From the NCBI GenBank assembly GCA_029856145.1, contig JAHQWK010000032.1, forward strand, positions 1-64,000: a DNA stretch of 64,000 bases, in the 5' to 3' direction. The stretch comes from Promethearchaeia archaeon. GTDB lineage: Archaea > Asgardarchaeota > Lokiarchaeia > Sigyniarchaeales > SOKP01. Position 1 is the first letter of the stretch. Every line of letters starts with the position of its first letter. Both the position numbers and the translations under genes were made by a program. Positions 17,401 to 42,260 of the stretch are shown here, piece by piece. The notes below the pieces were generated by a model. It was not told the origin of the DNA and searched no databases. It saw only the letters and a program-made list of their open reading frames with translations.

Positions 17401-17411
17401 GAAACAACTAA

Positions 17412-18302: not shown

Positions 18303-19156
18303 TGAATATGTCAGTACCTTCGAGTTTAAAAGTAGGACCAAATACGACTCTTATCTTAGCAAAGAAGAGATATGTAATCTTTTACGTCTTTTTAATTTGG
18401 ATTAGTATTTTTACAATACAGTTTGAATTTTGGTTGTTCTGGAAACTTTATGAGCCGAAATTCATTCATTTTTTACTTTTCTTACCTTTATTAGTTTTTG
18501 TTATGTATCTAACATCAATTTTAGTATCCTTAATCTTTGCTAAAATAATTTTAGTAATCATTAATCTTATTCATAAACCACGAGAAGGAGTGTTCTTAAG
18601 ACATCACTCGGATAAAGATTATAGATATTGGAGTCTTAGAAGTATTATAAAAAAATGGCCGTTTTGGCTATCACACAAATTTCCTTTTCCTTTTATGAAT
18701 AATATATGTTCTAAAATGTTTGGTATAAAAACTAACTACACCAACTCTTTATTTGAAGGATGGGTTGATACAGAATTCATTAAATTTGGAAAGAACGTTG
18801 TAGTTGGACAGGGGGCAATAGTCCAGTCATCCATTATTTTTGGAAATTTATTTATTATAAGAAAAACCATCATTGAAGACAATGTTATGATTGGTTCCCA
18901 AAGTGTTGTTATGCCTGGAACCTATATGAAAAAAAATTCTATTTTAGGAGGTCATTCAATGACCATAGTAGGTCAAAAATTAGAAGAGAATTTTATTTAT
19001 TTAGGAGCTCCAGCTAAAAAGTTTAAAAAAAATGTATTTTATGAAGATGGATTGGAAGATATTATTAAAAATCAAGGAATAGGAGATATTAAAACAGAAG
19101 CAAAATTTGAAGGATTATATACTGTACGTAAGGATAAAGAGATTATTGATGATTAG
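18302..19156 (+). CDS. Membrane LbH acyltransferase-like module, type C1
   Basis: MSVPSSLKVGP N-terminus, two TM, HKPREGVF...DYRYWSLR, FGKNVVVGQGA; stop/start overlap with B1. Confidence 0.85.
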   Translation: MNMSVPSSLKVGPNTTLILAKKRYVIFYVFLIWISIFTIQFEFWLFWKLYEPKFIHFLLFLPLLVFVMYLTSILVSLIFAKIILVIINLIHKPREGVFLRHHSDKDYRYWSLRSIIKKWPFWLSHKFPFPFMNNICSKMFGIKTNYTNSLFEGWVDTEFIKFGKNVVVGQGAIVQSSIIFGNLFIIRKTIIEDNVMIGSQSVVMPGTYMKKNSILGGHSMTIVGQKLEENFIYLGAPAKKFKKNVFYEDGLEDIIKNQGIGDIKTEAKFEGLYTVRKDKEIIDD

Positions 19157-19913: not shown

Positions 19914-20030
19914 TTTGATATCACTTTTGTTTTTATTTATATTTTAAATAAAGAATAAATAAATATTCCTTAATTATATATTTCTTTAAAATTATAAATT
20001 TAAATTGAAAGTCTATACTGTGGTGAAAAA

Positions 20031-20432: not shown

Positions 20433-20558
20433 TCTACTAATTTATTTATTTTTTATTAATTAAACTCATTTTTTTTTTCAAATTTTAAAGAATAGTATGA
20501 AATAAATTTATAATTTTGAGGGATATGAGTTAAAATCTAATTTTGTATATATTTTCTT

Positions 20559-21398: not shown

Positions 21399-21439
21399 AA
21401 ATTAAGTTAAAAAAAAATTTTTTTATTTTTTGAAGGAAT

Positions 21440-23080
21440 TTAAGCTTCTAATACATAAAGTGGCCATTTTTTCAAAACTCCTTTAGGATTTTTCCCGCTT
21501 CTAACTTTCTGTAACATTTCAGAGCGTGTCGCTAAGAAGTCTATTGGATTATTCTTAATTAGTTCTATTTCTATTTCATTATTTAAAATAGCTTCTTTAA
21601 ACTTTTCATTTCTAATACAGTTAAGTAAAATTTTGCTATAATTCTTTAAATTAGAGCAATTTTTCCTATCGTTTGAATAAAGAAATAATTTCAAACTATT
21701 ATTTACAGATTCTTTATAGATTAATAATAATAGAGAATCAATATCTAAGACACATTTGTCTTTTAAACAATTTAATAGAATTCGCGGATTTAAAATTTCG
21801 AAATTAGGAAAAGTAAAGTAATCACCAGCATAAACTTTATAATTCAATTGCAATCCTATCTCTTTCGATAAGTTTATTGGATATTTTAATTGAAAACTTG
21901 AACGTAAAATTTTTCCATCAATTTGAGGAAGACCTTCCTGATTTTTAATAGAAATAACGTCACCCAAATCTATATTAATTAAAACTCCTGAGTTATTAAG
22001 TCGTGAAACATAAAGCCTACCAAATTTATTTTTGGTCCTTGAAATTAACTCTTTTTTTCCTTTATAATCTATTACTGGAAGAGTTAGAGGAAAGATATGC
22101 ATTCTATTTAAGCGTGAAATTTCAAAATCTCCCATGTTTATGCTTGCAGCAAATGGGCCAATTTCAGAAGCTACATAAAGATTTGTAAATTTTTCTTTAC
22201 CCTCTTCCCATTTCATAAATTTACGAATTAATTCCCAATCTGATTTTGATAATGAACTTATACTAAATACCAAAGTTGCTTTCGATATTTTTTCAGATAA
22301 TTCTTTTTGAATTTCATATGAAACACTATCTAATCCATTCTTTTCAATTTTTAATAGAAAGTCTTCAAGTTTTGGATTTTGAGTTTTATTTATTAAATAA
22401 AGTGATCTTTTTATCCCATCTTGGAGTCTAGTAATATCTGCCCATCCTAAAATTGTTATTGCTGGTGCAGAAATAACTGAGATATTATCCATTGTTAAAA
22501 TTTTAGATATTATATCTAAGTTTCTTGAATTTTTATATTCATAAAACAGATATGCTTTTGGTTTAATAACGGATAGCATGATTCTTTGAGAAAATTCCGA
22601 GGAGTAAAGTGAAATATATTTCTTATCTCCTTGTTTTTGAATCCCATCAAATTTAAGCCTTGAAGGAACAAAAATAATAGCAGAGGAATTTAAATCTAAC
22701 CCACTCGATTCAAAAATTGCTTGCATACCAGGAGCCCATTGTCTTTTGACAATGTCTTTTGCCATATGAAACCATTTTAGTTCTGATAATTTACTATTTG
22801 TAGTCCCTGAAGTATGACAAAAAATTAATGCGTCAGAAGCTTTATCACTATTGAGAAAATCATCTATATCTATTGAGAAACTTCTAGAATCAGTTGTTTC
22901 AGATTTTATCCTATTGAAAAGATCTTCAATAGATGATAGCTCTGAAAGCTTTAATGACAATTCTTCATATTCCTCTCGAGAATCTATTTCAAGCCAATGT
23001 TTCCAATTTATCCTTTCTATATCTGAAAAAGATTTATTGAAGTTATTTTGAACTTTTTCATCAAAGTCATAAGATACCAA
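21440..23080 (-). CDS. GH3-like / ANL-superfamily adenylate-forming enzyme
   Basis: HTSGTT (P-loop), YVASEIG (YxxSE), IDLGDVI (GD motif). Confidence 0.65.
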   Translation of the reverse strand: MVSYDFDEKVQNNFNKSFSDIERINWKHWLEIDSREEYEELSLKLSELSSIEDLFNRIKSETTDSRSFSIDIDDFLNSDKASDALIFCHTSGTTNSKLSELKWFHMAKDIVKRQWAPGMQAIFESSGLDLNSSAIIFVPSRLKFDGIQKQGDKKYISLYSSEFSQRIMLSVIKPKAYLFYEYKNSRNLDIISKILTMDNISVISAPAITILGWADITRLQDGIKRSLYLINKTQNPKLEDFLLKIEKNGLDSVSYEIQKELSEKISKATLVFSISSLSKSDWELIRKFMKWEEGKEKFTNLYVASEIGPFAASINMGDFEISRLNRMHIFPLTLPVIDYKGKKELISRTKNKFGRLYVSRLNNSGVLINIDLGDVISIKNQEGLPQIDGKILRSSFQLKYPINLSKEIGLQLNYKVYAGDYFTFPNFEILNPRILLNCLKDKCVLDIDSLLLLIYKESVNNSLKLFLYSNDRKNCSNLKNYSKILLNCIRNEKFKEAILNNEIEIELIKNNPIDFLATRSEMLQKVRSGKNPKGVLKKWPLYVLEA

Positions 23081-23208
23081 AATATTCTCCTACACTGTAA
23101 GTTCTATTTTAATATATTGATGGTTAAAAATAACGATATTATCAAAATCTAATTAGAATAAATAAGGAAAAAATGAATTATATTGTTTTTCGAAAATATT
23201 TATTTGTT

Positions 23209-23748
23209 TTAAATATAATGTAAAATACCATATAACCCAGACTCAGGATCTTGGAATATAGGCAAGTGTGGTGGCAAATAGGTAAATATTATTAAAGAAA
23301 GTCCGAATCCTAAAATAATTATCCATGACATAATACTTATCCATCTTGGTAATTCATTTAATGTCAATATTTTATAGCTAACTACTTGACCAATAATTAC
23401 ACCAAAATAGAAACTTAAAATGTCTATTATAAGAAGTTCTGTCCCAAGAATAGCTGTATATGAGTAAAAAACAATTAAAATGGTAGCAATACTTATTATA
23501 GCAGCAAGACTTTTTGCAATGATAATATTATTTGCTTTTTCTTTTATAAACTTATATTCGATTAAAGAAAATATTACAAGCGGCCAATAGGGGAGTTTTA
23601 GATGTTCCCACACACTTTCATTAACTGCAGTAATTGCTCCAATGGGAGGCCAAGAAAAAAGCCATTCAAATACAAAGTGGAATAAAGAACCAACGATAAT
23701 GATAAAAATCATGCCCAAAATTTCCCATTGTAATAGTTTATTTTGCAT
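23209..23748 (-). CDS. Conserved membrane protein (DUF6512-like)
   Basis: GSLFHF..EW, AVNESVWEHLK, FTY.PP...F.DP. Confidence 0.75.
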   Translation of the reverse strand: MQNKLLQWEILGMIFIIIVGSLFHFVFEWLFSWPPIGAITAVNESVWEHLKLPYWPLVIFSLIEYKFIKEKANNIIIAKSLAAIISIATILIVFYSYTAILGTELLIIDILSFYFGVIIGQVVSYKILTLNELPRWISIMSWIIILGFGLSLIIFTYLPPHLPIFQDPESGLYGILHYI

Positions 23749-23988
23749 CTTTTCACCTTTAAATCTTTAAAAATGTAATCTAATTAATTTTGGTTAAATT
23801 GAAAATATAAAAAAGTGCATATTTCTGTTTTATATAAAAGATTATATTAAAAAATAGTTCTGCTTTGATTCTATAAATTAATTCTAAACTGTGACTTATC
23901 TTTATTAGGACTTATATTAATTTCTTTATTATTTCTAGATTGTAATTTGCTAATTTTAAATGTTAATAAAATACTAGTTTGATTTGAA

Positions 23989-24063
23989 ATGAAAGCAGCG
24001 GTATATGATGGAAGTAAAATAAATATAAAAGATATACTAATCCCACAAATAAAAAATAACTAA
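23989..24063 (+). pseudogene. 5' remnant of a zinc-dependent (MDR) alcohol dehydrogenase gene
   Basis: MKAAVYDGSKINIKDILIPQIKNN* resembles the typical MDR N-terminus (MKAAV...IxDxPxPxI). Confidence 0.5.
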
Positions 24064-24118
24064 ATGAGCGGTTTGTGCAAACTGTATTTTGATTGAGTAA
24101 AACCGCCTTTTTTAATAC

Positions 24119-24775
24119 TTATAGGGATTCTTCGACAACTTCTTTACTTAACATTTCAAAAAGTTTGTCAATGTTTTCTTCTCTTTTCGCTTGGGACTCC
24201 CCAAGAGCAATTTTTAAATTAACTTCACTTTGCTTTTCATCGACCATCACTCTATACCTTATATTATTACGGACTCTCCTTAATCTAAAGATATTTTTAA
24301 TTGGAATCTCATATCCATAAAAAGCTATATTTGGGATATATCTATTATAAGGTCCTTTGAGCTTACCCTGTGCAATCATTCTAGCATTAGTAATGAAAAT
24401 ACTTGCAGAATTTAAAAAAATGGGTTCAGTCATTTTTCTATTTTGTGTTATGTTCCCATTAAATTCAAGAAGTATTTGTTCTCCCTCAGTTAAATAATAT
24501 TTTTCAAGAATATATCTTTCCATTTCCTTTAGCTTCTCATCTCCAATAAGTTTCCCCATTTTATTCCTGAAAGATTTATAGAGTTTTTTCATAAAAAATT
24601 CGGGTTTTATTTTGAATGTTTCCCCGACAATGTTAAAAAAATCAGAATCGGAAAGCTGCTGAAATTCTGCTTTTCTTCGTAAGTCCAATAAAGTATTTAA
24701 AATTTTACTAGAAACTGGTTTTGGTCTTTGAAGTTCTTCTTTAAGAATATCCAATATTTGACTACTTTCACTCAT
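24119..24775 (-). CDS. Hypothetical protein with GRAM/PH-like C-terminal domain
   Basis: LTEGEQILLEF...IFITNARMI...EIPIKNI pattern. Confidence 0.55.
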   Translation of the reverse strand: MSESSQILDILKEELQRPKPVSSKILNTLLDLRRKAEFQQLSDSDFFNIVGETFKIKPEFFMKKLYKSFRNKMGKLIGDEKLKEMERYILEKYYLTEGEQILLEFNGNITQNRKMTEPIFLNSASIFITNARMIAQGKLKGPYNRYIPNIAFYGYEIPIKNIFRLRRVRNNIRYRVMVDEKQSEVNLKIALGESQAKREENIDKLFEMLSKEVVEESL

Positions 24776-24902
24776 TTTGATCCAGCCTATTTAAAAGTTT
24801 ATTAGTACATAATTAAACCAAATTTTATTTATAATTTACTCAAAAAAATTTTAGTTTGTGTAAATAAAACCAATATTGATTTATCCACTTATCCTATGAT
24901 TC

Positions 24903-24924
24903 TTAATCTGAAAATTTTTAAATA
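24903..24924 (+). promoter_or_regulatory. BRE/TATA promoter of LbH operon 2
   Basis: 22-nt exact copy of 16402..16423. Confidence 0.65.
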
Positions 24925-24990
24925 CTCACAAGTATATAACAAAGAAACATTAAAGAAAACCGCTAAATAAAGAAATTTAATAACTCTTCT

Positions 24991-25923
24991 GTGATAAAAT
25001 TGGAATCAAATAGTCCAGATCAAAAAGAAAATACTGAAAATAACATTATTAAAGAAGAAATTAAGTTACAGTTGCATATATGGCTACCTACATTCTATGT
25101 TATTTACTACTGTTCTTTTCTAATTCCGGGAATAATCTTCATGATGTATATGATGTTATTTTATTTGCCATTCTTCTTAGAGGAAGCAAACTTTATTTCT
25201 CTTTTTACTAATTTGCCTTCTCTCATTGCCTCTTTAACAATACCATTTGTAATAATAATATGTTACCTAATACATATATTTATTATAGCTCTAATAACTC
25301 GGTTGATTTGGAGATTCTCAGAAAAAAAATCTCCTTCTAAATCCGGAATCATCCCAAGAAATATCCCCAGTTTAACGTTAAATTATTATCACTTTCGTAG
25401 TTTTATTATAAAATATCCCAAAAACGTGTTTTCCCGAGGCCCATTTCCTTGGTTATTAAAATGGATGTATAATTTCGTCGGAACAAATAAAATAGGAAAA
25501 GGATCTGTCATTGAGGAGCAACTAGCTGGGGATAGGTTTGTAGAAATTGGAGAAAATACTTATATAGGAACAAATCCAGGTATCAGTTCACATGCAGTGG
25601 AAGGAACTTTTGGTAATATTTCATTTGCAAAGATAAAAATTAGAGATAATGTTACTGCTGCTGGATTTAATTGTTTTGGCCCGGGACTGGATACAGGAAA
25701 TAACTCATGGTGGTTACCTATGACTGGAGCAACGAAATACAACATTTTAAAAGGTAATAACTTCTATTTCGGCACTCCCCTCAGGAAGATTTTCAAAAGA
25801 AAGGTAATGGAGTACTTACAAATTTCAGAAGAGGATTTAAAAAGAGCAGAGGATTTTAAAAAAAAAATTGAATTAAAAAATCAAAAGAAAAAGAAGAAGA
25901 GGGAGATTCAAATAAATGAATGA
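24991..25923 (+). CDS. Membrane LbH module, type A2
   Basis: Close paralog of 16486..17400. Confidence 0.85.
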   Translation: MIKLESNSPDQKENTENNIIKEEIKLQLHIWLPTFYVIYYCSFLIPGIIFMMYMMLFYLPFFLEEANFISLFTNLPSLIASLTIPFVIIICYLIHIFIIALITRLIWRFSEKKSPSKSGIIPRNIPSLTLNYYHFRSFIIKYPKNVFSRGPFPWLLKWMYNFVGTNKIGKGSVIEEQLAGDRFVEIGENTYIGTNPGISSHAVEGTFGNISFAKIKIRDNVTAAGFNCFGPGLDTGNNSWWLPMTGATKYNILKGNNFYFGTPLRKIFKRKVMEYLQISEEDLKRAEDFKKKIELKNQKKKKKREIQINE

Positions 25924-26833
25924 AAATCTAGAAGAGAAAAAAAATGACGCAACTAAAGTCGATTATACTATTGATTTTGTAACAACTAGTGCGATTAGCA
26001 AAATTGGCTATAAATTTATTGGTTTTTATATCCCAATCTTATGGATTTCTGGATATATGGCGATTGCAGTATTTTTTGATGTCTCTAAGGGAATTTTTGA
26101 ACTAACTGGTCGATTTACCAGTGTGATAATCACCATGTTTCTTATACCAATATGGTTATTTGTTCTATATTTTATTTTTGTTTTTGGGATTGCTATGTTT
26201 ACAAAAGCATTCCTTCTAATAATAAACATGCTCCATAAGCCTAAAGAAGGAGTTTTCAGAGCAGAAGAAGGTGATCAAGATTATGAGTTTTGGAGACTAC
26301 GAGTAGAATTAAAGAAATTAGTTTTCTGGTTTATGAATAATGGGCCTTTGCCTTGGATTATAATGTGGGGTTTTAGATGGATGGATATTCATGTAGACTT
26401 TTCAAGTCATATGCAGGATGCATGGTCAGATGGTGGATTCATTGAATTCGGCCGAAATGTCACTGTAGGGCAAGGAGCAGTTGTAATGAGTTCAATGATT
26501 GTAGGAAAATATTTGATCATCAAAAAGGTTGTTCTAGGAGATCATACTGTCGTAGGTGGGCTATCACAGATCTCTCCGGGTACAATAATGGGTAAAGAAT
26601 CTGTGCTTGGTGCTTTTTCTACAACAATTCCCAGTCAATTTTTAGAACCAGGATGGATTTACTTAGGCCCTCAATTTGCAAGAAAACTAAAACCAAATAA
26701 ATATGCAGAGCAACGTAGAGATGTTATTATTGAGAAACATGTGGATGATGAAATAAAATATGAAGTTAAACAAGAAATTAATATAGATGAAGCTAAGAAA
26801 AAGCTCGTAAATAATAATAAGGAGGAAGAATGA
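25916..26833 (+). CDS. Membrane LbH module, type B2
   Basis: Close paralog of 17412..18302. Confidence 0.85.
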   Translation: MNENLEEKKNDATKVDYTIDFVTTSAISKIGYKFIGFYIPILWISGYMAIAVFFDVSKGIFELTGRFTSVIITMFLIPIWLFVLYFIFVFGIAMFTKAFLLIINMLHKPKEGVFRAEEGDQDYEFWRLRVELKKLVFWFMNNGPLPWIIMWGFRWMDIHVDFSSHMQDAWSDGGFIEFGRNVTVGQGAVVMSSMIVGKYLIIKKVVLGDHTVVGGLSQISPGTIMGKESVLGAFSTTIPSQFLEPGWIYLGPQFARKLKPNKYAEQRRDVIIEKHVDDEIKYEVKQEINIDEAKKKLVNNNKEEE

Positions 26834-26836
26834 ACC

Positions 26837-27688
26837 ATGTCAGTGCCTTCAAGTTTAAAAGTTGGGCCAAATACAAGTCTTATCTTAGCAAAAAAGAGAT
26901 ATCTAATATTCTATATTTTTTTAATCTGGATTAGTATTTTTTCAATTCAATTTGAATTTTGGTTATTTTGGAAACTTTATATTATTGAGAAATACATTCA
27001 TTTTTATTTCTTCTTGCCTCTTTTCATTTTTATAATGTACCTTACGTCAATAATAGTATCGCTAATTTTTGCAAAAATTCTTCTTCTAATCGTTAATCTT
27101 GTTCATAAGCCACGTGAGGGTGTTTTCATTAGGCACCGATCTGATAAGGATTATAGATATTGGAGTTTGAGAAATACTATTAAGAAATGGCCAATTTGGA
27201 TATCTCACAAATTCCCGTTCCCATTTATGAACAATATATGCTTCAAAATGTTTGGAGTAAAAACTAAATATTCTAATTCTTTATTTGAAGGGTGGGTTGA
27301 TACAGAATTTATTGATATCGGTAAAAATGTGGTAGTTGGACAGGGCGCTGTTGTCCAATCAGCCATTATAGTTGGCAATTTATTTATTATTAAAAAAACT
27401 ATTATTGAGGATAATGTCGTAATTGGATCTCAAAGTGTTCTTATGCCCGGAACGCATATGAAAAATAATTCTATTTTAGGAGGTCATTCTATGACTACAG
27501 TAGGGCAAGAATTAGAAGAATATTGGATATATTTAGGTGCACCTGCAAAAAAGTTTAAAAAAAATGTATTCTTTGAAGAAGGTTTAGAAGAGATTATTAA
27601 ACAGCAAGCAGAAAAAAAAATAGAATCACGAAAAAGATTTGAAGATTTATATACAATGCGCAAAGACAAGGAAGCTAAAATTGATTAA
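26837..27688 (+). CDS. Membrane LbH module, type C2
   Basis: Close paralog of 18302..19156; starts MSVPSSLKVGP. Confidence 0.85.
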   Translation: MSVPSSLKVGPNTSLILAKKRYLIFYIFLIWISIFSIQFEFWLFWKLYIIEKYIHFYFFLPLFIFIMYLTSIIVSLIFAKILLLIVNLVHKPREGVFIRHRSDKDYRYWSLRNTIKKWPIWISHKFPFPFMNNICFKMFGVKTKYSNSLFEGWVDTEFIDIGKNVVVGQGAVVQSAIIVGNLFIIKKTIIEDNVVIGSQSVLMPGTHMKNNSILGGHSMTTVGQELEEYWIYLGAPAKKFKKNVFFEEGLEEIIKQQAEKKIESRKRFEDLYTMRKDKEAKID

Positions 27689-27735
27689 TATAAATCTCTT
27701 TTAAAATTCTATTAAAATCTTAAAGTTGACTAAAT

Positions 27736-28536
27736 ATGAAAGTTGGATATATTCAAACATCTCCAATTTTTGGAGAAAAAAGGCAAAATTTTAAGAAAAT
27801 TGAAAAATTGATTACAAAATTAAAGGCAGATTTAATTGTATTACCAGAACTATTCGCTACAGGTTATGCTTTTGTCTCTAAAGAAGAAGCGGTCCCTTTA
27901 GCTGAAGATTTCAACGGTGAAACGGCTCAATTTTTAATAAAGATGGCCAAAATTACTGGTGCAATAATAATTGGAGGATTTATCGAAAAAGAAGAAGAGA
28001 AAATATACAATTCCGCAATGATTGTTTCAAGTGAAGGTGTTATTGGATCATATCGGAAGATCCATCTATATTTTAAAGAAAAGCTCTGGTTTTTTCCTGG
28101 AGATAAACCTTTAAAGGTATACGATATTGATGGAGTCAAAATTGGGATTATGATTTGCTTTGATTGGATTTTCCCGGAAACAACTCGTACTCTTGCTCTT
28201 CTTGGTGCAGACATCATTGCACATCCAACTAATTTAGTATTACCATATTGTCAGAAAGCAATGGTAACACGATGTTTAGAAAATCGAGTTTTTGCTGTAA
28301 CTGCAAACAGAATTGGTGAAGAAAAACGAGGTTCTGATCATTTTACGTTTACAGGAAAAAGTCAAATAACTTCTTATAATGGTGAAATTTTATCTTCAGC
28401 TCCAAGAGATGAAATTTATGTAGATTTTATAGATATAGATATTCAAAAAGCAAGAGACAAAAATCTAAATGAGTATAATAATTTATTTGAAGATAGACAG
28501 GTAGAATTTTATTATAATACTGATAAACCAAAGTAA
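27736..28536 (+). CDS. Nitrilase-family carbon-nitrogen hydrolase (amidase)
   Basis: E-K-C triad: LPELF, YRKIHL, MICFDW. Confidence 0.92.
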   Translation: MKVGYIQTSPIFGEKRQNFKKIEKLITKLKADLIVLPELFATGYAFVSKEEAVPLAEDFNGETAQFLIKMAKITGAIIIGGFIEKEEEKIYNSAMIVSSEGVIGSYRKIHLYFKEKLWFFPGDKPLKVYDIDGVKIGIMICFDWIFPETTRTLALLGADIIAHPTNLVLPYCQKAMVTRCLENRVFAVTANRIGEEKRGSDHFTFTGKSQITSYNGEILSSAPRDEIYVDFIDIDIQKARDKNLNEYNNLFEDRQVEFYYNTDKPK

Positions 28537-28753
28537 TTTCATGAAGTGCATTGTAAAAGTACCAATATAGATAATCCCATCAAGTCCATTATGTATTTTT
28601 CTAAGTATTATTAGAACAAATTATTAATGATAGAAGGACAAATTTTTACTTAGTTTAGTCAGGTTTCATTCAATTAAAGCCATGATCATATCAAAATCTT
28701 ACTATTTAATAGAACTTAAAAATTATAAATGATTTCGATTTGCATGGATTAAT

Positions 28754-30511
28754 ATGGTAAACTCCGAAACACCTTTAATTGAACACGATTCAGAAAAAAA
28801 AGTTATTAGAGAAGATATTAAATTCCAATATTTTTGGTATCTTGTTGTCTTATTTACGATTTACTTAATTTCATATTTAATTCCTGCTATTTTATTCATG
28901 ATTTACTTTCTATTTTATTTTATCCCTTCCTTTTTAGAAACTACAAATTTCCTATCAATTTTTATTAATTTAAAACCTCTTTTGGCATTAATATCCATGC
29001 CTTTGGTTATTATCGTATGTTATCTAATCCGCTTATTTCTGATTGCATTAGTTGCGCGCTTTTTTTGGAGATTGTCAGAAAAAAAATCCCCTTCTAAACC
29101 AGGCACTATACCAAGAAATTTCCCAAGTAAAACGCTAAATTTTTATCACATAAGATCTTTCATAATAAAATATCCCAAAACCGCTTTCACTAAAGGAATT
29201 TTTCCGTGGTTGTTACCATGGCTATATAATTTTGTAACCACGAGCCAGATTCAGAAAGGGACGACAATGGAAGAATCTTGTGTGAATGATAAATTTTTAG
29301 AAATTGGGAAAAATTGCTACATCGGTGTTAATTCAGTATTTACTAGTCATTTAATTGATGGTATATTTGGAAATATTGCTTATTTTAAAATTAAAGTAGG
29401 TGATAATGTTACCGCTGCGGCAAAAAACCTAATTGGTCCCGGTTCTGAAATTAAAGATAATTCCTACTTACTCCCTTTAGCTTCCACACCAAAACATAGC
29501 ATATTAAAAGGCAATAGCTATTATTTTTCAGCAGGAGCAAAACCCCTCCAGAGAATATCTAAAAGAAAAATTAAGAGCTATTTGAAAATTGACCCTGAAA
29601 CATTAGAACAAATAAAAGACGTTAAAGATGCAATTGGTTCTTCACCAGTTCAAACACAAGAAACGAATGAGGAGAGAGAAAAAGATTTATCGATCAATTT
29701 CGTCACAAGCAGCGCAATAAGTAGAGTTAATCTAAAATTTTTAATTTTGTATATCCCTATCTTTTGGCTTTCTGGGATGTTAGACGCTATAATCTTTTAT
29801 ACATATACTTATTATGTTCAAAACGGGATTTTAATGGTCTTTTTTTTACCAGCGATAATGTTTTTTATGTGGTTTGTATTTATTTTCAGCTGTTTAATTT
29901 TTAGTAAACTGTTTCTAATCTTAATAAACTTGACTCATAAGCCAAAAGAGGGAATCTTTAAAGCTGAAAAGGGCGATAATGATTTTGAATTTTGGTGCTT
30001 ACGGATCGAATTAAAGAAAATTGTGTTATGGCTTGTACGAAATTGGCCTCTTCCTTGGATGGACATATTAGTTTTCAAATGGTTTGGAATAAAAATAAAT
30101 TTTTCATGTGGCTTGTGGGATTCATGGTGTGATGCAGAGTTCATTCATTTCGGACGTAAAGTTTTAATAGGGCAAGGAGCAACGGTCATGTCTTCTATGG
30201 TTATTGGTAAATATTTAATTATCAAAAAAGTGATATTTGATGATTATTCTCTTATCGGTGGTCATTCTATTATCTCTCCAGGAACAATAGTAGGAAAAGA
30301 GACATTAGTTGGTGCTTTATCATATTCTTTATATAATCAAGTATTAGAGCCCGGATGGGTATATTTTGGAATGCCCATACAAAAATTGAAGAAGAACAAA
30401 TATGCCGAGGAACGACGGAACAAAATAATGAAAAGAGATGTTGATGAAGAAAAGAAATTTGAAATTGATCATGACATCAATATTGAAGAAGATAAGAAAG
30501 AGCTTGCTTAA
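28754..30511 (+). CDS. Fused A+B membrane LbH protein (AB3)
   Basis: N-half aligns with type A; C-half, from INFVTSSAISR, aligns with type B. Confidence 0.85.
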   Translation: MVNSETPLIEHDSEKKVIREDIKFQYFWYLVVLFTIYLISYLIPAILFMIYFLFYFIPSFLETTNFLSIFINLKPLLALISMPLVIIVCYLIRLFLIALVARFFWRLSEKKSPSKPGTIPRNFPSKTLNFYHIRSFIIKYPKTAFTKGIFPWLLPWLYNFVTTSQIQKGTTMEESCVNDKFLEIGKNCYIGVNSVFTSHLIDGIFGNIAYFKIKVGDNVTAAAKNLIGPGSEIKDNSYLLPLASTPKHSILKGNSYYFSAGAKPLQRISKRKIKSYLKIDPETLEQIKDVKDAIGSSPVQTQETNEEREKDLSINFVTSSAISRVNLKFLILYIPIFWLSGMLDAIIFYTYTYYVQNGILMVFFLPAIMFFMWFVFIFSCLIFSKLFLILINLTHKPKEGIFKAEKGDNDFEFWCLRIELKKIVLWLVRNWPLPWMDILVFKWFGIKINFSCGLWDSWCDAEFIHFGRKVLIGQGATVMSSMVIGKYLIIKKVIFDDYSLIGGHSIISPGTIVGKETLVGALSYSLYNQVLEPGWVYFGMPIQKLKKNKYAEERRNKIMKRDVDEEKKFEIDHDINIEEDKKELA

Positions 30512-30622
30512 CTTAAATTTCTGAAAAATTCGAATTAGAAAACATATATTTTTAAAACATTGTGTTTTTTAGAAAAAATATCTTAATTACTAAATATAAA
30601 TCAAAATTGAAAATTTAATGCT

Positions 30623-32452
30623 ATGACAAAAACGGAGCAACAATCAACTGAAAATGTTTCAGAGGATCAAGTTCCCCAAGAAGAAATTAAATTTCCATAT
30701 TTTTCGTTTTTACTTATATTTTTTATTATTTATTTGGCTTCATTGATTGTACCAGCACTAATATTTTTAGTTTATATATTCCTCTATTTTTTACCTCAAT
30801 TTTTAGAAATTACAAATTTTTTTGCTCTTTTTACAGAAATTAAGTCCCTAATTGCATTAATAACTATGCCTCTTGTTCTCATTTGTTGTTATCTTCTCCG
30901 GTTATTTTTCATAGGTCTAATTACACGTGGATTTTGGAGATCTAGTGAAAAAAAATTACCTAGTAAAAATGGGATAATACCAAGAAATGTTCCAAGTAAG
31001 GCATTGAATTATTATCAGAAGAGAAGCTTTATGATCAAATATGGAAAAAATTCCTTTATAAAAGGGGCCTTTCCTTGGCTTAGTAATTGGTTTTTCAACT
31101 TTGTGGGGTCAAATCAAATTGGAAAAGGTACAACCTTTGAGGAAAGTTCTGGTAATGACAAATTCGCAATTGTAGGTAAAAATTGTTATTTTGGTGTTAA
31201 CTCAATGTTAGCTAGCCATTTGGTAGATGGAACTTTTGGAAATATTAATTACTTTCAAATAAAAGTAGGAGATAATGTTACAACCGCCGGAACAAACCTG
31301 ATTGCACCGGGATCAGAAGTACATGATAATTCTTATTTATTACCTATAGCTTCGACCCCAAAACATAGTGTATTAAAAGGAAATAATTTTTATTGGGGGT
31401 TACCACTCAGGAAAATATTCAGAAAGAAGATAATGAAATATTTAGGGGTAACTCCAAAAGATTTAGAGATGAATGATAATGTTGAAGGTTACGCTGATAA
31501 AAAATTATTGGAAAAATTGAAAGCAGAGAAAGAATTGAGACAATCTGAGATTATCCCCAAAGAGGAACAAATAAAAGTAAATTTAGGAGAGGATGAAATT
31601 GACATAAATAATTTAACAGAAAAAAAATTAGCAATTGATTTCACGACAAGTAGCGCGATTTCAAGAGTTAATATAAAATTCCTAATCTTATATATCCCTA
31701 TTTTTTGGCTTTCTGGGATGTTAGACTCTATAATTTTTTATACATATACTTATTATGTTCAAAACGGGATTTTAATGGCTTTTTTTCTGCCAACTTTGGT
31801 AATCATTATGTGGTTTGTATTTATATTAGGTTGTTTCTTTTTCAGCAAGTTATTTTTAGTTTTAATAAATTTGATTCACAAACCTAAAGAAGGTATTTTT
31901 AAAGCAGAAATTGGTGACACTGATTTTGAGTTTTGGTGTTTACGGACAGAAGTGAAAAAAATTGTGATATGGCTTATACGAAATTGGCCTCTTCCTTGGA
32001 TGGACATACTAGCTTTTAAATGGTTTGGAATAAGAATGAGCTTATCTAGCTCTTTATATGATTCTTGGTGCGATGGTGAATTTATATCATTTGGGCGAAG
32101 GGTATTAGTTGGTCAAGGAGCCACTATCATGTCTTCGATGGTTGTTGGTAAATACTTGATTATAAAGAATGTTATATGTGGTGATTATTCTCTTATCGGT
32201 GGACACACCACTATAGCGCCAGGGACTGTTATAGGCGAAGATACTTTTGTGAGTGCAATTTCAAATACAATATATAACCAGATTCTTGAGCCCGGGTGGC
32301 TCTATCTTGGAATACCCGTGAAAAAACTCAAGGAAAATAAATACAGGAAAGAGAGAAGAGATATAATCATGAAAAGAGACGTAGACGAAGAAGAAAAATT
32401 CGAGATTGAACATGAAATTAACATTGAAGACGACAAAAAAGATCTTACCTAG
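30623..32452 (+). CDS. Fused A+B membrane LbH protein (AB4)
   Basis: Same two-module architecture as AB3. Confidence 0.85.
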   Translation: MTKTEQQSTENVSEDQVPQEEIKFPYFSFLLIFFIIYLASLIVPALIFLVYIFLYFLPQFLEITNFFALFTEIKSLIALITMPLVLICCYLLRLFFIGLITRGFWRSSEKKLPSKNGIIPRNVPSKALNYYQKRSFMIKYGKNSFIKGAFPWLSNWFFNFVGSNQIGKGTTFEESSGNDKFAIVGKNCYFGVNSMLASHLVDGTFGNINYFQIKVGDNVTTAGTNLIAPGSEVHDNSYLLPIASTPKHSVLKGNNFYWGLPLRKIFRKKIMKYLGVTPKDLEMNDNVEGYADKKLLEKLKAEKELRQSEIIPKEEQIKVNLGEDEIDINNLTEKKLAIDFTTSSAISRVNIKFLILYIPIFWLSGMLDSIIFYTYTYYVQNGILMAFFLPTLVIIMWFVFILGCFFFSKLFLVLINLIHKPKEGIFKAEIGDTDFEFWCLRTEVKKIVIWLIRNWPLPWMDILAFKWFGIRMSLSSSLYDSWCDGEFISFGRRVLVGQGATIMSSMVVGKYLIIKNVICGDYSLIGGHTTIAPGTVIGEDTFVSAISNTIYNQILEPGWLYLGIPVKKLKENKYRKERRDIIMKRDVDEEEKFEIEHEINIEDDKKDLT

Positions 32453-32464
32453 GACATCTCAACT

Positions 32465-32878
32465 TTAATCAATTTTCAAGGTAAATTGCTGTTCTAAAAA
32501 CCTTTTCAAATTCGAACATGTAATTTTTAGACTTTGTTTTGTATTATAAAATTGCTCCTTTCTAGGGCAATCATCATCAAGTAAGCATTTTTTTTTGTTA
32601 ATATCATAGATTAATGGATAAAATCGGCATCCTTGAGGTCGAAATTCATAAATTTTACATTTCTTTGCAGAGTAGTTTAAAAAAACGCAATGACCATCAA
32701 TATTTTTTAGTTGAAATTGCTCATTTTTATTTTTAAAAGCAATATCTTGTTTCTTTATTTTATTCGGATAACTTTTTACTATTAAGTCAATGTCTTGTTG
32801 AGAAAGTATCATTTCTGTTTCTAAACAACACTCTCCGCAATTTTCACATATGTTTTTCAATTTCTGCCTACGAATCAT
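32465..32878 (-). CDS. YkgJ-family cysteine-cluster protein
   Basis: CENCGECC...CVFL...CKIYEFRPQGCRFYP. Confidence 0.9.
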   Translation of the reverse strand: MIRRQKLKNICENCGECCLETEMILSQQDIDLIVKSYPNKIKKQDIAFKNKNEQFQLKNIDGHCVFLNYSAKKCKIYEFRPQGCRFYPLIYDINKKKCLLDDDCPRKEQFYNTKQSLKITCSNLKRFLEQQFTLKID

Positions 32879-32974
32879 AAATTTAAAAGGAAAAAAAAAT
32901 AACTATTAAAGTAAATAAGTATCAATTGCTTTTTAATAGAAATAAATAAGTTGATCTAGGATTGACTAGTCAAA

Positions 32975-34834
32975 ATGAGTGAAGAATCTGAAGAAAGTGA
33001 TCTTCCAAATAATAATGAAGTTATAAAAGAAGAGGTCAGTCTTCAGTACCATTTATATATCTTTATTTTTGCATTAATATTTTATGGTTCATGGGTAATT
33101 CCCGGGATTTGCTTTTTTTGGTATTTGCTTCAAGTATTCCTACCATATGTATTAGATGTTACTAATTTTTTCCTTATCTTTATTCAATTGGAGTCATTAA
33201 TCGCATTTCTCTCAATGCCGTTAGTTCTTATTGGATGTTATTTGTTGCGTTTATTCTTTTTAGGACTATCTACTAAGATTTTTTGGAAGATATCTGAAAA
33301 AACCTCTCCATCAAAAGCGGGAGTGATTCCACGAAATATTCGTAGTAGAGCGGCAAATTACTATCATTTAAGAGGTTTTATGATTAAATACGGAAAAAAT
33401 ACCTTTACAAAGGGAGTTTTTACTTGGCTCAGTAATTGGTTTTTTAATTTTATAGGAGCATCCAAAATAGGGAAAGGTACGACGTTGGAGGAATCTGTAG
33501 TTAATGATAAATTTATTGAAATTGGGAAGAACTGTTATTTGGGGGTAAATTCTGCTTTAGGGACTCATGTAGTGGAGGGAATCTTTGGTAATATCTCATA
33601 CTTCAAAGTTAAAGTTGGCGATAACGTTACCGGGGCAACAACAAATTTAATTGGGCCTGGATCAGAAATACGCGATAATTCATTTCTGCTTCCTTTAGCT
33701 TGCGCGACAAAACATAGTATAGCAGGAAAACCTCCCTTAATTAATTACTATTGGGGCATGCCATTAAGACGAATATTCAGAAGAAAGATAATGCAATATT
33801 TGGGTGTATCAGCAAAAGACTTAGAGAAAAATGAAAATATTCAAGGTTATGCTGATAAAAAATTACTGAAAAAATTAAAAGCCGAAGAAATCATTGATAA
33901 CACTCACAATAAGCAACATGTAGTTAGTAAATTACCTGAGGATAAAATAAACGTAAATGCTTTAACAGCAAAAGATTTAGAAGTGGATTTTACTACGAGT
34001 TCTGCGATCAGTAGAGTAAATATAAAGGTTTTAGCTGTTTATATACCAATATTTTGGCTAGCAGGACTAGTAGTTTCGATCTTTTGGTACTGGTATCTTT
34101 CTGATGAGAATTGGGCTATGATTTTAACCTTTCTCCCCCTTGCTTTATTTGGTTCAATTTATTTTTTTATTTTTGCTTGTATGCTCTTTAGTAAATTATT
34201 CTTAATTTTTGTAAATTTAATTCATAAACCCAAGGAGGGTGTCTTTAAAGCCGAGATTGGTGATAAGGATTTTGAATTCTGGATGTTTAGAACTGAATTA
34301 AAGAAAATGATTTTATGGTTTATGCGATATTCACCATTTCCATGGTTAGATGTACTAGCTTTTAAATTAATTGGGGTTGATATGGATACATCTAGCCATC
34401 TTAATGATACTTGGTGTGATGGTGAATTCATTAAATTTGGCAGAAAGAATTTAATCGGTCAAGGAGCCAATATTATGTCGAGTACAGTAATAGGTAAGTA
34501 TTTGATCATTAAAAAAGTAATATTTGATGACTATGTAATGGTTGGAGCTCATACAACTATAGGGCCTGGAACAATAATAGGTAAAGAGACAATCGTTGGT
34601 GCGATTTCCACCACCACATTTAATCAAGTTCTTGAGCCTGGGTGGATTTACACAGGAATTCCTGTCACAAAATTCAAACCAAACAAATATGCTGCATCTC
34701 GTAGAGAAATCCTTGTAAAAAAAGATGTAGATGAAGCAAGAAAATATGAAGTCACACATGAAGTAAACATAGATGAGGATAAGAAAGAATTAATTAAAAC
34801 AGAAAATAATAATAATGTTCATGATTCTTCTTGA
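32975..34834 (+). CDS. Fused A+B membrane LbH protein (AB5)
   Basis: Same two-module architecture as AB3. Confidence 0.85.
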   Translation: MSEESEESDLPNNNEVIKEEVSLQYHLYIFIFALIFYGSWVIPGICFFWYLLQVFLPYVLDVTNFFLIFIQLESLIAFLSMPLVLIGCYLLRLFFLGLSTKIFWKISEKTSPSKAGVIPRNIRSRAANYYHLRGFMIKYGKNTFTKGVFTWLSNWFFNFIGASKIGKGTTLEESVVNDKFIEIGKNCYLGVNSALGTHVVEGIFGNISYFKVKVGDNVTGATTNLIGPGSEIRDNSFLLPLACATKHSIAGKPPLINYYWGMPLRRIFRRKIMQYLGVSAKDLEKNENIQGYADKKLLKKLKAEEIIDNTHNKQHVVSKLPEDKINVNALTAKDLEVDFTTSSAISRVNIKVLAVYIPIFWLAGLVVSIFWYWYLSDENWAMILTFLPLALFGSIYFFIFACMLFSKLFLIFVNLIHKPKEGVFKAEIGDKDFEFWMFRTELKKMILWFMRYSPFPWLDVLAFKLIGVDMDTSSHLNDTWCDGEFIKFGRKNLIGQGANIMSSTVIGKYLIIKKVIFDDYVMVGAHTTIGPGTIIGKETIVGAISTTTFNQVLEPGWIYTGIPVTKFKPNKYAASRREILVKKDVDEARKYEVTHEVNIDEDKKELIKTENNNNVHDSS

Positions 34835-34916
34835 TAATATAATTAAAAATTTGAAAATTTTATAGAACAATTTAAAAAAGAGAAGGAGAAATGTAAAAAA
34901 ATAAGAGTGATAAAAG

Positions 34917-35897
34917 ATGTCGGTTCCAAATACAATGCGTGTAGAGTAAGATGCGATTCGAATCTTGCACACTAGGCCTTTCACGCCCTCGGTTTTGGCA
35001 AAAAAAAGATATTTAATTTTTTATATATTTCTGATATGGGCAAGTATAATCCCTTTACTCCTAGAATTGTGGGTGTATTGGCGGTGGTTATGGAATTATG
35101 ATAGGCCTGTCCATTTTTATACATTCCTTCCTCTTTTAGGTGTACTGATGTATGTAACAATTGTCTTTTCAGGAATAATATTTGCTAAAATACTTTTGAT
35201 TTTTGTTAATGCAATTCACAAGCCTCGAGAAGGTGTATTTTTGAGAATTCCAGAAGATCGAGATTATCGATATTGGAGCCTAAGAAATACTATAAAGCGT
35301 TGGCCGGTTTGGCTTGCTCACAGATTTCCATTTCCAGGAATTATGGATAATGTTTGTTTTAAAATGTTTGGAGTAAAAACTAAAATAAGTAATTCCTTAT
35401 TTGAAGGATGGGTAGATACAGAATTCATAGATTTTGGTAAAGATGTAGTAGTTGGGCAAGGAGCAATTGTTCAATCTGCTGTTATTATTGGTAATTTGTT
35501 AATAATCCGAAAAACAATAATAGAAGATAATGTAAGGATAGGTTCACATGCTATAGTTATGCCTGGTACTCATATAGGGCAAAATTGCATTCTCGCAGCA
35601 AATTCAGTAACAACAGTTGGACAAGAGTTAGAAAGAGGTTGGATTTATGTAGGGATTCCAGCAAAACAATTCAAAAAGAACTATTTCTTTGAAGATGGAT
35701 TGGAAGATAAGATTGGCCATGTTGAAGACGTTGAAAGTTTGAGAGAAAAATACGAAGATATCTATATTAGACGAAAAGATGAGCTTAAACGTAAAGATCG
35801 TAGAGAAATTAAGAAAGAAAAGAAAGAAGAAGAAAAGAAGAGATTTGATTATGAGGCCGAGGAATGGGAAGATATTGATGACGGTTTCAGTATATAA
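34917..35897 (+). CDS. Membrane LbH module, type C3, intron-containing: join(34917..34944,34975..35897), 316 aa
   Basis: ATG at 34917 with RBS GAGTGAT (34905..34911). The spliced N-terminus MSVPNTMRVGPFTPSVLAKKRY aligns without gaps to MSVPSSLKVGPNTSLILAKKRY of C2. Confidence 0.88.
34945..34974 (+). other. 30-nt archaeal bulge-helix-bulge (BHB) intron in an mRNA
   Basis: Central helix GUGU/ACAC, 3-nt bulges AGA and UAG, intron stem GUAAGAU/AUCUUGC; contains in-frame TAA (34947..34949). Confidence 0.88.
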
Positions 35898-40279: not shown

Positions 40280-40774
40280 ATGAAAATTCAAGAAGATTTT
40301 GTTTTCCCTGTATATATTTATGAAAAGACGATTGAGGAAATTAAATTATTGTGCAAAAGTTCAGAATTAGAAATTTTTGGATATCTTATAGGCACCACCT
40401 CAAAATGGAATGGAAGAATTTATACTTTAATAGAGGAATCACTATTTCTGCTTGGAGCGATATATAGTCATAAATCCTATACCTCTCAAATAGAAGGAAC
40501 TGCCGGATTATATCAGAAAAAATTTCAGAGAATTAAGAAAAAAAGAAAAAATGAGAATTTAAAAATTATCGGGTGGTGGCATTCACATCCGAATTTAGGA
40601 TGTTTTTTATCTTCTACAGACTTGTTGACTCAGAAGTATTTCTTTTCTAAAGAATATCAAGTTGCTCTTGTTATTGATCCATTTCGAAATGAATTTGAAT
40701 TTTTTTCTTTAGATAACAACTCAAAAAAAGGTTACAAATCATTAAGTTATGCTGTTTTAAAAAAAACTAGTTAA
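40280..40774 (+). CDS. JAB/MPN+ metalloprotease (deubiquitinase, Rpn11/CSN5-like)
   Basis: E..G.LIG, GWWHSHPNLGCFLSSTD, ALVIDP. Confidence 0.92.
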   Translation: MKIQEDFVFPVYIYEKTIEEIKLLCKSSELEIFGYLIGTTSKWNGRIYTLIEESLFLLGAIYSHKSYTSQIEGTAGLYQKKFQRIKKKRKNENLKIIGWWHSHPNLGCFLSSTDLLTQKYFFSKEYQVALVIDPFRNEFEFFSLDNNSKKGYKSLSYAVLKKTS

Positions 40775-40782
40775 GTCTAAAC

Positions 40783-41670
40783 ATGTCAAGAAAAAAAGAA
40801 GATTTTAAAGATTATACTGTATATGGGATTGATTCTATAGATTCAGATATATTTGATCGCCAAAAACGTATAAAAGGATGGGATCAAAGCAAGATTTCTA
40901 ACGCAACAGTTATGGTTATTGGTGCGGGAGCTATAGGGAATGAAGTTATTAAAAATCTAGTGTTAACAGGTATAGGTAATATCATTTTAATTGATTACGA
41001 TTTTATAAATACCTCAAACTTAAATCGATGCATTCTATTTAATGTAGAAAATGCTCAGCAGAAAGAATATAAAGTGGATGCTATAAAAGATGCATGTAAA
41101 AAACTCAATCCAAATGTAGAGATTATAACAGTTAAAAATGATTTAAATGACATTGATAAAGCATTTTATGAAAAATCTGATGTTATTTGTTCATGTGTAG
41201 ATAATATTGAAGCAAGACTAGAAGCAAATAACTATGCATTTTATTATGAAATACCATTTGTAGATTCAGGAATTGACGAACTCTTTGGTAGTGTTCAATC
41301 AGTTTATTCTGAAATAAAAGATGCCGCTTGTCTTCAGTGTAATGTTTCTGACATGGATTTAGATTTGATGTGGAAAAAATTTTCATGTACAGGGCAAGAA
41401 GTTGAGAGTAAAAACGGTGAAACTATGGGAATAATACCAGCCATTATTACGACCACTTCTATTATCGGGGGATTACAATCACAACAAGTATTGAAATTTA
41501 TATTAGGAATTGATTATTTTAAAGAACACAATAAATGGAATCCTCATATTGGCCCGCCTTTGATTGGAAAACAATTGAATTATAATGGTCTATTAAATAA
41601 ATTTGAAGTTATTGAGAAATTAAAAAATCCAGAATGTTGGACATGTTCATTTAAAAAAATAATTTATTAA
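40783..41670 (+). CDS. Ubiquitin-activating enzyme E1-like (ThiF/UBA)
   Basis: FDRQ, GAGAIGNE, DYDFINTSNLNR, CLQC, putative catalytic FSCT, CWTC. Confidence 0.92.
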   Translation: MSRKKEDFKDYTVYGIDSIDSDIFDRQKRIKGWDQSKISNATVMVIGAGAIGNEVIKNLVLTGIGNIILIDYDFINTSNLNRCILFNVENAQQKEYKVDAIKDACKKLNPNVEIITVKNDLNDIDKAFYEKSDVICSCVDNIEARLEANNYAFYYEIPFVDSGIDELFGSVQSVYSEIKDAACLQCNVSDMDLDLMWKKFSCTGQEVESKNGETMGIIPAIITTTSIIGGLQSQQVLKFILGIDYFKEHNKWNPHIGPPLIGKQLNYNGLLNKFEVIEKLKNPECWTCSFKKIIY

Positions 41671-41696
41671 AAAAGAAAAATAATGGGTGAAGCTGT

Positions 41697-42260
41697 TTGC
41701 CAGAACTTCCTTATGAAATATGGAAAGATAGAATTGATAATGAACTTAGTAATATGAAAAAGTTAGGTAATCTTGAAGAAAATTCAATAAATATGAATAG
41801 TAATAATATTGAATTAATTTTAAATATAACAGCGTTAGGGTTTGTCAGGGAAAAAGCAGACTTAGTACCAAAAAATTCTCATCGTATATATCTTAAAATA
41901 AATCGATCCTTTCCCTACCCTGGTGGTATAGATTTTTCTTGGCTATCAAAAATATTTCATCCTAATATTCATCCTATTGAATTATCATTTTCAAATGAAC
42001 CAGGAACAGGATATATATGTCTAAATATTTTAAAAAAATGGTCACGATTATCCGATTTAGTGACTACTGTTAGAGCTTTAAAAATATTAGTCGAAAATCC
42101 CAATCCTCATGACCCTCTTGATTATCCTGAATGTCTAGATGCTGCTAAATTTTATAAGAAAAATAATATCACGGAACTTAAGAAAAAGTATTCTTCTGAG
42201 GAGGGTTATAAGGATTCTGAGAGAAAAGAAGATGATGATATTAAAATCATAGAAGAATAA
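41697..42260 (+). CDS. Ubiquitin-conjugating enzyme E2-like
   Basis: FPY, IFHPNI, GYICLNILKKWS (catalytic Cys), NPNPHDPL. Confidence 0.92.
   Translation: MPELPYEIWKDRIDNELSNMKKLGNLEENSINMNSNNIELILNITALGFVREKADLVPKNSHRIYLKINRSFPYPGGIDFSWLSKIFHPNIHPIELSFSNEPGTGYICLNILKKWSRLSDLVTTVRALKILVENPNPHDPLDYPECLDAAKFYKKNNITELKKKYSSEEGYKDSERKEDDDIKIIEE

What the first reader, a model, noticed from the sequence alone, without database searches (positions are those of the whole stretch)
34917..34980. Canonical bulge-helix-bulge intron interrupting a protein-coding gene in an Asgard-like archaeon
Seen in sequence: an RBS (GAGTGAT) and ATG at 34917 give MSVPNTMRV, matching MSVPSSLKV of paralogs C1 and C2. 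A 30-nt insert with an in-frame TAA follows, and then PFTPSVLAKKRY resumes. The RNA folds into a textbook BHB: central 4-bp helix GUGU(34939-42)/ACAC(34969-72); 3-nt bulges AG^A(34943-45) and UA^G(34973-75); 7-bp intron stem GUAAGAU/AUCUUGC; outer pairs G34937-C34977 and C34938-G34976, then a U-C mismatch and two A-U pairs. Established: the archaeal splicing endonuclease EndA cuts after the 2nd nucleotide of each bulge and RtcB ligates. Applying that rule joins G|GG to give GGG-CCT = Gly-Pro, exactly the V-G-P of both paralogs, with no gap. Neighbouring registers give Arg or Glu instead. BHB introns are normal in tRNA/rRNA, but in mRNA I know of them essentially only in crenarchaeal cbf5. Inference: this is tRNA-endonuclease-type mRNA splicing in the lineage closest to eukaryotes, reminiscent of non-spliceosomal HAC1/XBP1 splicing.
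Basis: partly seen in the sequence, partly recalled or inferred. Interest (0 to 1): 0.97.

Follow-up and report, generated by a model that had tools for sequence, protein, structure and literature searches.

The report
Mobile tRNA-type intron in Asgard gene
A 30-base insert that breaks a membrane acyltransferase-like gene of a Lokiarchaeia (Asgard) archaeon has the shape that the tRNA-splicing enzyme cuts, is very probably spliced out of the mRNA like several others in this genome, and seems to have moved between two species of the genus that are not each other's closest relatives; no spliced RNA has yet been seen.

Summary
Observation confirmed. The insert (34945-34974, in-frame TAA) is identical in 13 other assemblies. 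Only the bulge-helix-bulge (BHB) register restores V-G-P, as in the 43 of 53 genus relatives with an uninterrupted gene; 0 of 200,000 random inserts fit as well. A second species (G068) has a diverged 29-nt, frame-breaking version at the same site. It keeps the central helix and an intact 314-aa spliced frame, and has no in-frame TTG in the insert, so it must be removed there. The two genes are 80% identical and not sisters (AU p=0.03), yet exon 1 is identical base for base, which suggests lateral transfer of the intron with flank. The genome encodes two EndA subunits and RtcB and has at least six more BHB inserts (uL11, RNase HII, mevalonate kinase, NifU, B12 mutase, Zn-ribbon); uL11 has three sites in the genus. 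No RNA evidence was obtained. In searchable papers only cbf5 is confirmed in a coding sequence. This scan has already noted the phenomenon many times on other Lokiarchaeia DNA. The HAC1/XBP1-like regulatory reading has no support.

The parts
34905..34911 (+). Shine-Dalgarno-like GAGTGAT ahead of the ATG
   Evidence: sequence; function inferred
34917..34944 (+). Exon 1 (MSVPNTMRV plus first base of Gly10); identical base for base in species G068
34939..34942 (+). BHB central helix, exon strand (GUGU)
   Evidence: kept in G068
34943..34945 (+). 5' bulge AG^A, predicted 5' splice site after 34944
   Evidence: EndA rule (PMC2738675) plus unique Gly-restoring register
34945..34974 (+). 30-nt BHB intron with in-frame TAA at 34947-49
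   Evidence: absent from 43 genus orthologs; identical in 13 assemblies; 29-nt homolog in G068
34946..34968 (+). Intron hairpin: 7-bp stem 34946-52/34962-68, apical loop C-GAUUC-G (34954-60)
   Evidence: RNAfold -5.8 kcal/mol; apical R-N-N-U-C motif in 9 of 15 such inserts
34965..34967 (+). Intronic in-frame TTG, a possible rescue start; absent from the G068 homolog
34969..34972 (+). BHB central helix, intron strand (ACAC)
34973..34975 (+). 3' bulge UA^G, predicted 3' splice site after 34974
   Evidence: AA^G in G068
34975..35897 (+). Exon 2 of a 316-aa membrane plus hexapeptide (left-handed beta-helix) acyltransferase-like protein; databases list it as a truncated 249-aa protein
   Evidence: Pfam PF00132; TIGR02353 far below cut-off; P0124; dN/dS about 0.05
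32975..34834 (+). Upstream two-module paralog, likely partner subunit (context, not part of the intron)
26837..27688 (+). Intron-free paralog starting MSVPSSLKVGP
18308..19156 (+). Second intron-free paralog starting MSVPSSLKVGP

Best explanation
The 30 nt are a true endonuclease-type mRNA intron. The pre-mRNA folds into a bulge-helix-bulge, the host's two-subunit EndA cuts after G34944 and A34974, RtcB joins the exons, and the 316-aa protein is made; unspliced RNA gives a 10-aa peptide. It is probably a tolerated, routinely removed passenger, one of many mini-introns in this genus, and it probably passed laterally between the G000 and G068 lineages together with exon 1. Shown: sequence, geometry, unique register, conservation in a second species, presence of the enzymes, purifying selection on the gene. 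Inferred: folding in vivo, cleavage, ligation, neutrality, lateral transfer (about 0.7) and its direction.
For: Unique Gly-restoring BHB register, chance below 1 in 200,000. 43 of 53 genus genomes uninterrupted. G068 has a 29-nt frameshifting homolog with 3 substitutions and 1 indel that keep the central helix and a hairpin, and an intact 314-aa spliced ORF. Gene under purifying selection: dN/dS 0.03-0.09 against the ten nearest orthologs, ordinary terminal branch 0.078 vs median 0.074. EndA subunits pass TIGR00324 (112 and 84 bits, cut-off 59.6); RtcB E 1e-170. 12 of 14 frame-breaking or stop-bearing inserts have a 4-bp central helix at the protein-restoring register, against about 0.3 expected from shuffles and 1 of 14 on the antisense strand. 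In uL11 the insert frameshifts a universal ribosomal protein; its stem covaries and the exon helix strand is fixed in 11 of 11 intron-bearing versus 3 of 22 intron-free genes. Lateral transfer: exon 1 has 0 differences while the next twelve 30-nt windows have 4-8; a TCG Ser codon occurs in only these 2 of 30 genes; gene tree (AU p=0.032) and a four-protein species tree separate the two.
Against: No spliced read, excised circle or cleavage assay was obtained. The BHB conformer is not the predicted minimum-energy fold and has only 2 contiguous exon pairs. In G000 an in-frame TTG could yield a near-full protein without splicing, and two intron-free paralogs exist in the window. One stop-bearing 27-nt insert (G016 Zn-ribbon gene) has no BHB, and some uL11 site-B copies have only 3 of 4 central pairs. 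Three sites in the tally were reached through a BHB scan or a lead before or instead of motif-free detection. Transfer rests on two genomes, both metagenome bins.
Confidence: 0.88

Rival explanations
1. No splicing: the insert stays in the mRNA and the protein is made by (re)initiation at the intronic TTG 34965, or at a later start.
For: TTG 34965 is in frame and gives a 310-aa product lacking only the first residues; TAA lies 15 nt upstream, so re-initiation is conceivable.
Against: The G068 homolog has no in-frame start inside the insert; its first in-frame TTG after the junction lies 6 codons into exon 2. The TTG sits in the hairpin stem with no Shine-Dalgarno. The MS(V/I)P N-terminus is conserved in about 100 homologs and both paralogs. 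It does not explain the BHB or the frameshifting inserts in uL11.
Confidence: 0.05
2. The insert is an inactivating insertion (tiny mobile-element scar or duplication) and the gene is a young pseudogene; the BHB is coincidence.
For: Paralogs exist; TAG occurs at both ends; age of the insertion on the branch is unknown.
Against: The TAG repeat is offset by 31, not 30, so it is not a frame-consistent target duplication. No second copy in the genome (best other match 21 of 30). Exon 2 is intact with low dN/dS in both species although the inserts have diverged. Chance fit below 5e-6.
Confidence: 0.03
3. The insert is skipped by another route: ribosomal bypassing (hopping) over the hairpin, or removal by a nuclease other than EndA.
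For: A hairpin with a stop codon just after the take-off site resembles bypass signals (own knowledge); many inserts share an apical R-N-N-U-C loop that EndA is not known to need.
Against: No matched take-off and landing codons; junctions fall in all three codon phases; the geometry follows the EndA rule exactly across many genes.
Confidence: 0.04
4. The intron is spliced and serves as a regulatory switch (HAC1/XBP1-like) that gates the one C-type subunit shared by three upstream two-module genes. This is an add-on to the best explanation.
For: It lies in codon 10, so unspliced RNA is null; the gene is the only one of its type after three two-module paralogs; a competing fold exists.
Against: 43 of 53 relatives do without it; G068 has it with a different upstream gene; like inserts lie in unrelated housekeeping genes with patchy presence.
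Confidence: 0.08

Closest known systems
cbf5 pre-mRNA intron of Desulfurococcales and Sulfolobales (Watanabe 2002; Yokobori 2009, PMC2738675)
   Same: Short intron in a coding sequence, BHB at the borders, cut between 2nd and 3rd bulge residue, host with a hetero-oligomeric EndA, patchy presence.
   Different: Other phylum; other gene (cbf5 motif GTLDP is intact in this genome); many genes and sites instead of one old site; apparently lateral spread; splicing here not yet shown.
HVO_1309 5' UTR BHB intron of Haloferax volcanii (Schwarz 2020, PMC7714728)
   Same: EndA-processed BHB intron in an mRNA.
   Different: That one is untranslated and optional for the frame; this one carries a stop in codon 11.
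Asgard tRNA introns (PMC11291895; bioRxiv 10.64898/2026.10.13.758758)
   Same: Same enzymes, similar length, repeated recent gains at BHB-compatible sites, arrival route unknown, splicing in an Asgard cell not shown.
   Different: Those papers treat tRNA genes only (the preprint has no mention of mRNA); I found no close sequence match of this insert to any other part of the genome, tRNA genes included.
HAC1/XBP1/bZIP60 non-spliceosomal splicing (PMC13149111)
   Same: Protein-only cut and ligate of an mRNA that restores a frame.
   Different: Cut by IRE1 at two stem-loops under stress; here BHB geometry, EndA, and no sign of regulation.

Membership tests
Archaeal BHB (EndA/RtcB) intron | 4-bp central helix flanked by two 3-nt bulges on opposite strands | tested here: met
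   GUGU/ACAC, AGA and UAG; kept in G068
Archaeal BHB (EndA/RtcB) intron | Flanking helices on intron and exon side (hBHBh') | tested here: met
   7-bp intron stem, 2-bp exon helix; G068 has an early mismatch then an 8-bp hairpin
Archaeal BHB (EndA/RtcB) intron | Cuts after the 2nd bulge base restore the functional product | tested here: met
   Only this register gives V-G-P as in orthologs
Archaeal BHB (EndA/RtcB) intron | Host encodes EndA and RtcB | tested here: met
   Two EndA subunits, one RtcB; (alpha-beta)2 type inferred from Tyr/His/Lys in one subunit only
Archaeal BHB (EndA/RtcB) intron | BHB is the fold actually adopted | tested here: inconclusive
   Predicted 2.3 kcal/mol above a competing fold
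Archaeal BHB (EndA/RtcB) intron | Spliced RNA or excised circle observed | tested here: inconclusive
   No RNA holder listed; possible RNA runs were laid only on the uL11 region and did not cover its inserts
Archaeal BHB (EndA/RtcB) intron | Cleavage by EndA in vitro or in vivo | not testable with these tools
   needs an assay
cbf5 intron | Located in the catalytic Asp codon of cbf5 | tested here: not met
   Host gene is a hexapeptide protein; cbf5 motif uninterrupted here
Group I/II or spliceosomal intron | Ribozyme core of hundreds of nt, or GU-AG ends | tested here: not met
   30 nt, ends AG...UA, no Rfam match at E up to 1
IRE1-type (HAC1/XBP1) intron | Two separate stem-loop cleavage sites and stress-regulated IRE1 | not tested
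   Geometry is a single BHB; IRE1 was not searched for; regulation cannot be tested here
Pls/PosA terminal domain (host protein) | TIGR02353 above its cut-off | tested here: not met
   36.8 bits against 423: distant resemblance only

The most novel reading that the evidence does not exclude
One genus of Lokiarchaeia carries a population of 28-37-nt EndA-spliced mRNA introns, in essential genes too (up to three in the first 100 nt of uL11), that share an apical loop signature and spread laterally between species with co-conversion of flanking exon. mRNA splicing would then be routine in these close relatives of eukaryotes, and this site records an intron arriving.
Probability: 0.55. Interest if true: 0.92.

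Novelty: new variant of a known kind. Interest (0 to 1): 0.8.

Why it matters
In the papers I could search, EndA splicing inside a coding sequence is confirmed for one archaeal gene, cbf5. If these inserts are spliced, Asgard archaea splice many mRNAs, and gene callers truncate or split those genes (this one is listed at 249 aa instead of 316; uL11 at 118 instead of 164). The shared insert in two non-sister species with an identical exon 1 gives a testable handle on how BHB introns arrive, which a 2026 preprint calls the central open problem for Asgard tRNA introns. It does not by itself bear on the origin of spliceosomal introns.

Tried and rejected
RNA evidence: no RNA holder listed for the locus. 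No full-length protein identical to the spliced focal or uL11 product is on record; a candidate full-length/truncated uL11 pair proved to be two species, 88% identical. Ab-initio census with relaxed BHB plus frame repair had no specificity (322 true vs 288 decoy), so the number of introns per genome was not measured; the strict scan also missed relaxed cases. A loose order-wide pattern gave noise. Pfam uL2 search was insensitive. No second copy of the insert in the genome, no tRNA-intron donor seen, no frame-consistent target-site duplication. No tRNA or Rfam match at the site. Promoter/terminator scan at background and bacterial in type. In-frame inserts of 18-24 nt in SecY, a 42-nt one in G002 and a 30-nt one at C11 were rejected as ordinary indels. 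Two scripts timed out and one failed part-way.

Full report
Observation. Removing 34945-34974 joins G to GG and gives a 316-aa ORF that starts MSVPNTMRVGPFTP. Across 11 registers only the BHB register gives Gly. Of 200,000 shuffled and 200,000 random genomic 30-mers placed at this site, none gave a 4-pair Watson-Crick central helix with a 7-bp stem. The insert is identical in 13 other contigs whose flanks match the window at 99.7-100% where measured, so it is real and apparently fixed in the species; these contigs come from few studies and some may be the genome's source. The segment is not unusually stable, and the BHB conformer is about 2.3 kcal/mol above a competing fold.

Organism and machinery. 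Homologs are named Promethearchaeota/Lokiarchaeia by their sources, and relative G005 is CP070831. The 3.55-Mb, 97% complete genome has two EndA subunits that pass TIGR00324, one of them with Tyr, His and Lys in the catalytic region by inspection, one RtcB, and several tRNA genes with introns. A two-subunit enzyme is the type reported to cut non-canonical sites (abstract of PMC5829648).

Host gene. It encodes a membrane protein with a hexapeptide beta-helix, weakly like the Pls/PosA terminal domain but far below the cut-off. It follows three two-module paralogs; two intron-free paralogs lie earlier in the window. About 100 full-length homologs keep the N-terminus and the G-P junction. dN/dS to the ten nearest orthologs is 0.03-0.09 and the terminal branch is ordinary, so the gene shows no decay.

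A second species. A pattern search of all 54 genus genomes found 43 uninterrupted orthologs and one other insert, in G068. It is 29 nt, so it shifts the frame. It differs by 3 substitutions and 1 indel, keeps GUGU/ACAC and a hairpin, has no in-frame start codon inside it, and its removal gives an intact 314-aa ORF with V-G-P. This makes the TTG-rescue and pseudogene readings unlikely. The two genes are only 80% identical (dS 1.2), yet the 28 nt of exon 1 are identical, while the next twelve 30-nt windows differ at 4-8 positions; a TCG Ser codon is found only in these 2 of 30 genes, where 25 have AGY. The gene tree separates them (0 of 200 bootstrap trees, AU p=0.032 with the first 12 residues removed), as does a tree of uL2, TFB, GatD and GatE. 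Inheritance with many losses would need repeated TCG/AGY switches. I infer lateral transfer of the intron with exon 1 (about 0.7); the direction is not established, and a chimeric bin was not excluded.

It is one of many. A strict genome-wide BHB scan with frame repair brought up a 28-nt insert in uL11. In relatives uL11 is interrupted at three sites, and G004 has all three; no match from the other families sampled was split in this way. At the third site the stem covaries (A-U, G-U, G-C at one pair; U-A to C-G at another), and the exon strand is the same in 11 of 11 intron-bearing genes against 3 of 22 intron-free ones; shared descent explains part of that. Motif-free spliced alignment over 723 genes of this genome and about 1,870 gene copies in relatives found further inserts in a Zn-ribbon gene, proteasome alpha (two), thioredoxin, a DnaG-like gene, a 467-aa gene and a 140-aa gene; paralog comparison added a B12-binding mutase subunit. 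Leads from earlier notes were confirmed in RNase HII, mevalonate kinase and NifU, judged against family motifs from my own knowledge. Of 14 frame-breaking or stop-bearing inserts tallied, 12 have a 4-pair central helix at the protein-restoring register, about 0.3 expected, with 1 of 14 on the antisense strand; thioredoxin has 3 of 4 pairs plus a 9-bp stem, and one 27-nt insert has no BHB. This genome therefore has at least seven such inserts; the total was not measured. Nine of 15 share an apical R-N-N-U-C loop against 1.2 expected; the motif was defined after the fact and the null does not keep the hairpin, so this is a lead.

Mechanism. Most likely the pre-mRNA forms the BHB, EndA cuts after 34944 and 34974, RtcB ligates, and the full protein is made (0.88). 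The cutting rule is from PMC2738675; folding, cleavage and ligation here are inferred. No RNA evidence was obtained. An earlier AI note reports a metatranscriptome contig lacking another such insert of this genome; I did not check it and do not count it. A regulatory role is unlikely (0.08), since most relatives lack the intron and like inserts are scattered over unrelated genes.

Known and new. Confirmed coding-sequence EndA introns are limited to cbf5 in the papers I could search (PMC2738675, PMC7714728), plus a 5' UTR case in Haloferax; PMC2738675 says others were predicted. Asgard papers describe tRNA introns only (PMC11291895; bioRxiv 10.64898/2026.10.13.758758). Seven literature searches found no report of Asgard mRNA introns, but most subscription journals are not searched. 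This scan has noted the phenomenon before on other Lokiarchaeia DNA (36 notes in at least 25 genomes). I class it as a new variant of a known kind. What this site adds is the sign of lateral movement. Interest 0.8.

Noticed in passing
L180:3242-3269 (G000 C28 minus strand, 14768-14741): 28-nt strict BHB insert frameshifts ribosomal protein uL11; shared by 9 relatives; two other uL11 sites (35-37 nt) occur in the genus, all three in G004.
   Followed up: yes
L266 (G068 C36 73509-73564, minus): 29-nt homolog of the focal insert with identical exon 1 in a non-sister species; upstream gene differs from G000's.
   Followed up: yes
L180:10663-10691 (G000 C28 minus, 22190): 29-nt BHB-like insert in a 56-aa Zn-ribbon gene, also in G006 and G016; G016 has a further 27-nt stop-bearing insert with no BHB, unexplained.
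   Followed up: partly
L181:8156-8185 (G000 C18 61155-61184): 30-nt insert with stop in the RNase HII DEAG-RG motif; central helix has 3 G-U pairs.
   Followed up: partly
G000 C19 + 57732 (32 nt), C3 + 203065 (31 nt), C10 + 33334 (30 nt): BHB inserts in a B12-binding mutase subunit, mevalonate kinase and NifU.
   Followed up: partly
L094:15984-16166 (G068): Two inserts in proteasome alpha; the 32-nt one sits in an 11-nt direct repeat around palindromic GTAC, suggesting that a duplication can create a BHB.
   Followed up: partly
L175, L170, L146, L122: BHB-like inserts in thioredoxin and a DnaG-like gene (G002), a 467-aa gene (G023) and a 140-aa gene (G005).
   Followed up: partly
window 34954-34963 and other inserts: Apical R-N-N-U-C pentaloop in 9 of 15 inserts; 4 of 15 contain a tRNA T-loop-like UUCRA(A/U)U.
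   Followed up: partly
window 16486-35897: Array of about ten membrane plus hexapeptide genes, weakly similar to the Pls/PosA terminal domain, with a nitrilase-family gene at 27736-28536.
   Followed up: partly
window 40280-42260: JAB-like, E1-like and E2-like genes in tandem (by sequence motifs); the E1 GxGxxG loop is uninterrupted here.
   Followed up: no
G000 C8 12915-13007: ARAGORN calls a selenocysteine tRNA; it finds only 27 tRNAs in the genome, probably because of multiple introns.
   Followed up: no
L238 (G005 1924786 onward): Second copy of the focal gene type in G005 whose match stops near residue 130, apparently broken.
   Followed up: no
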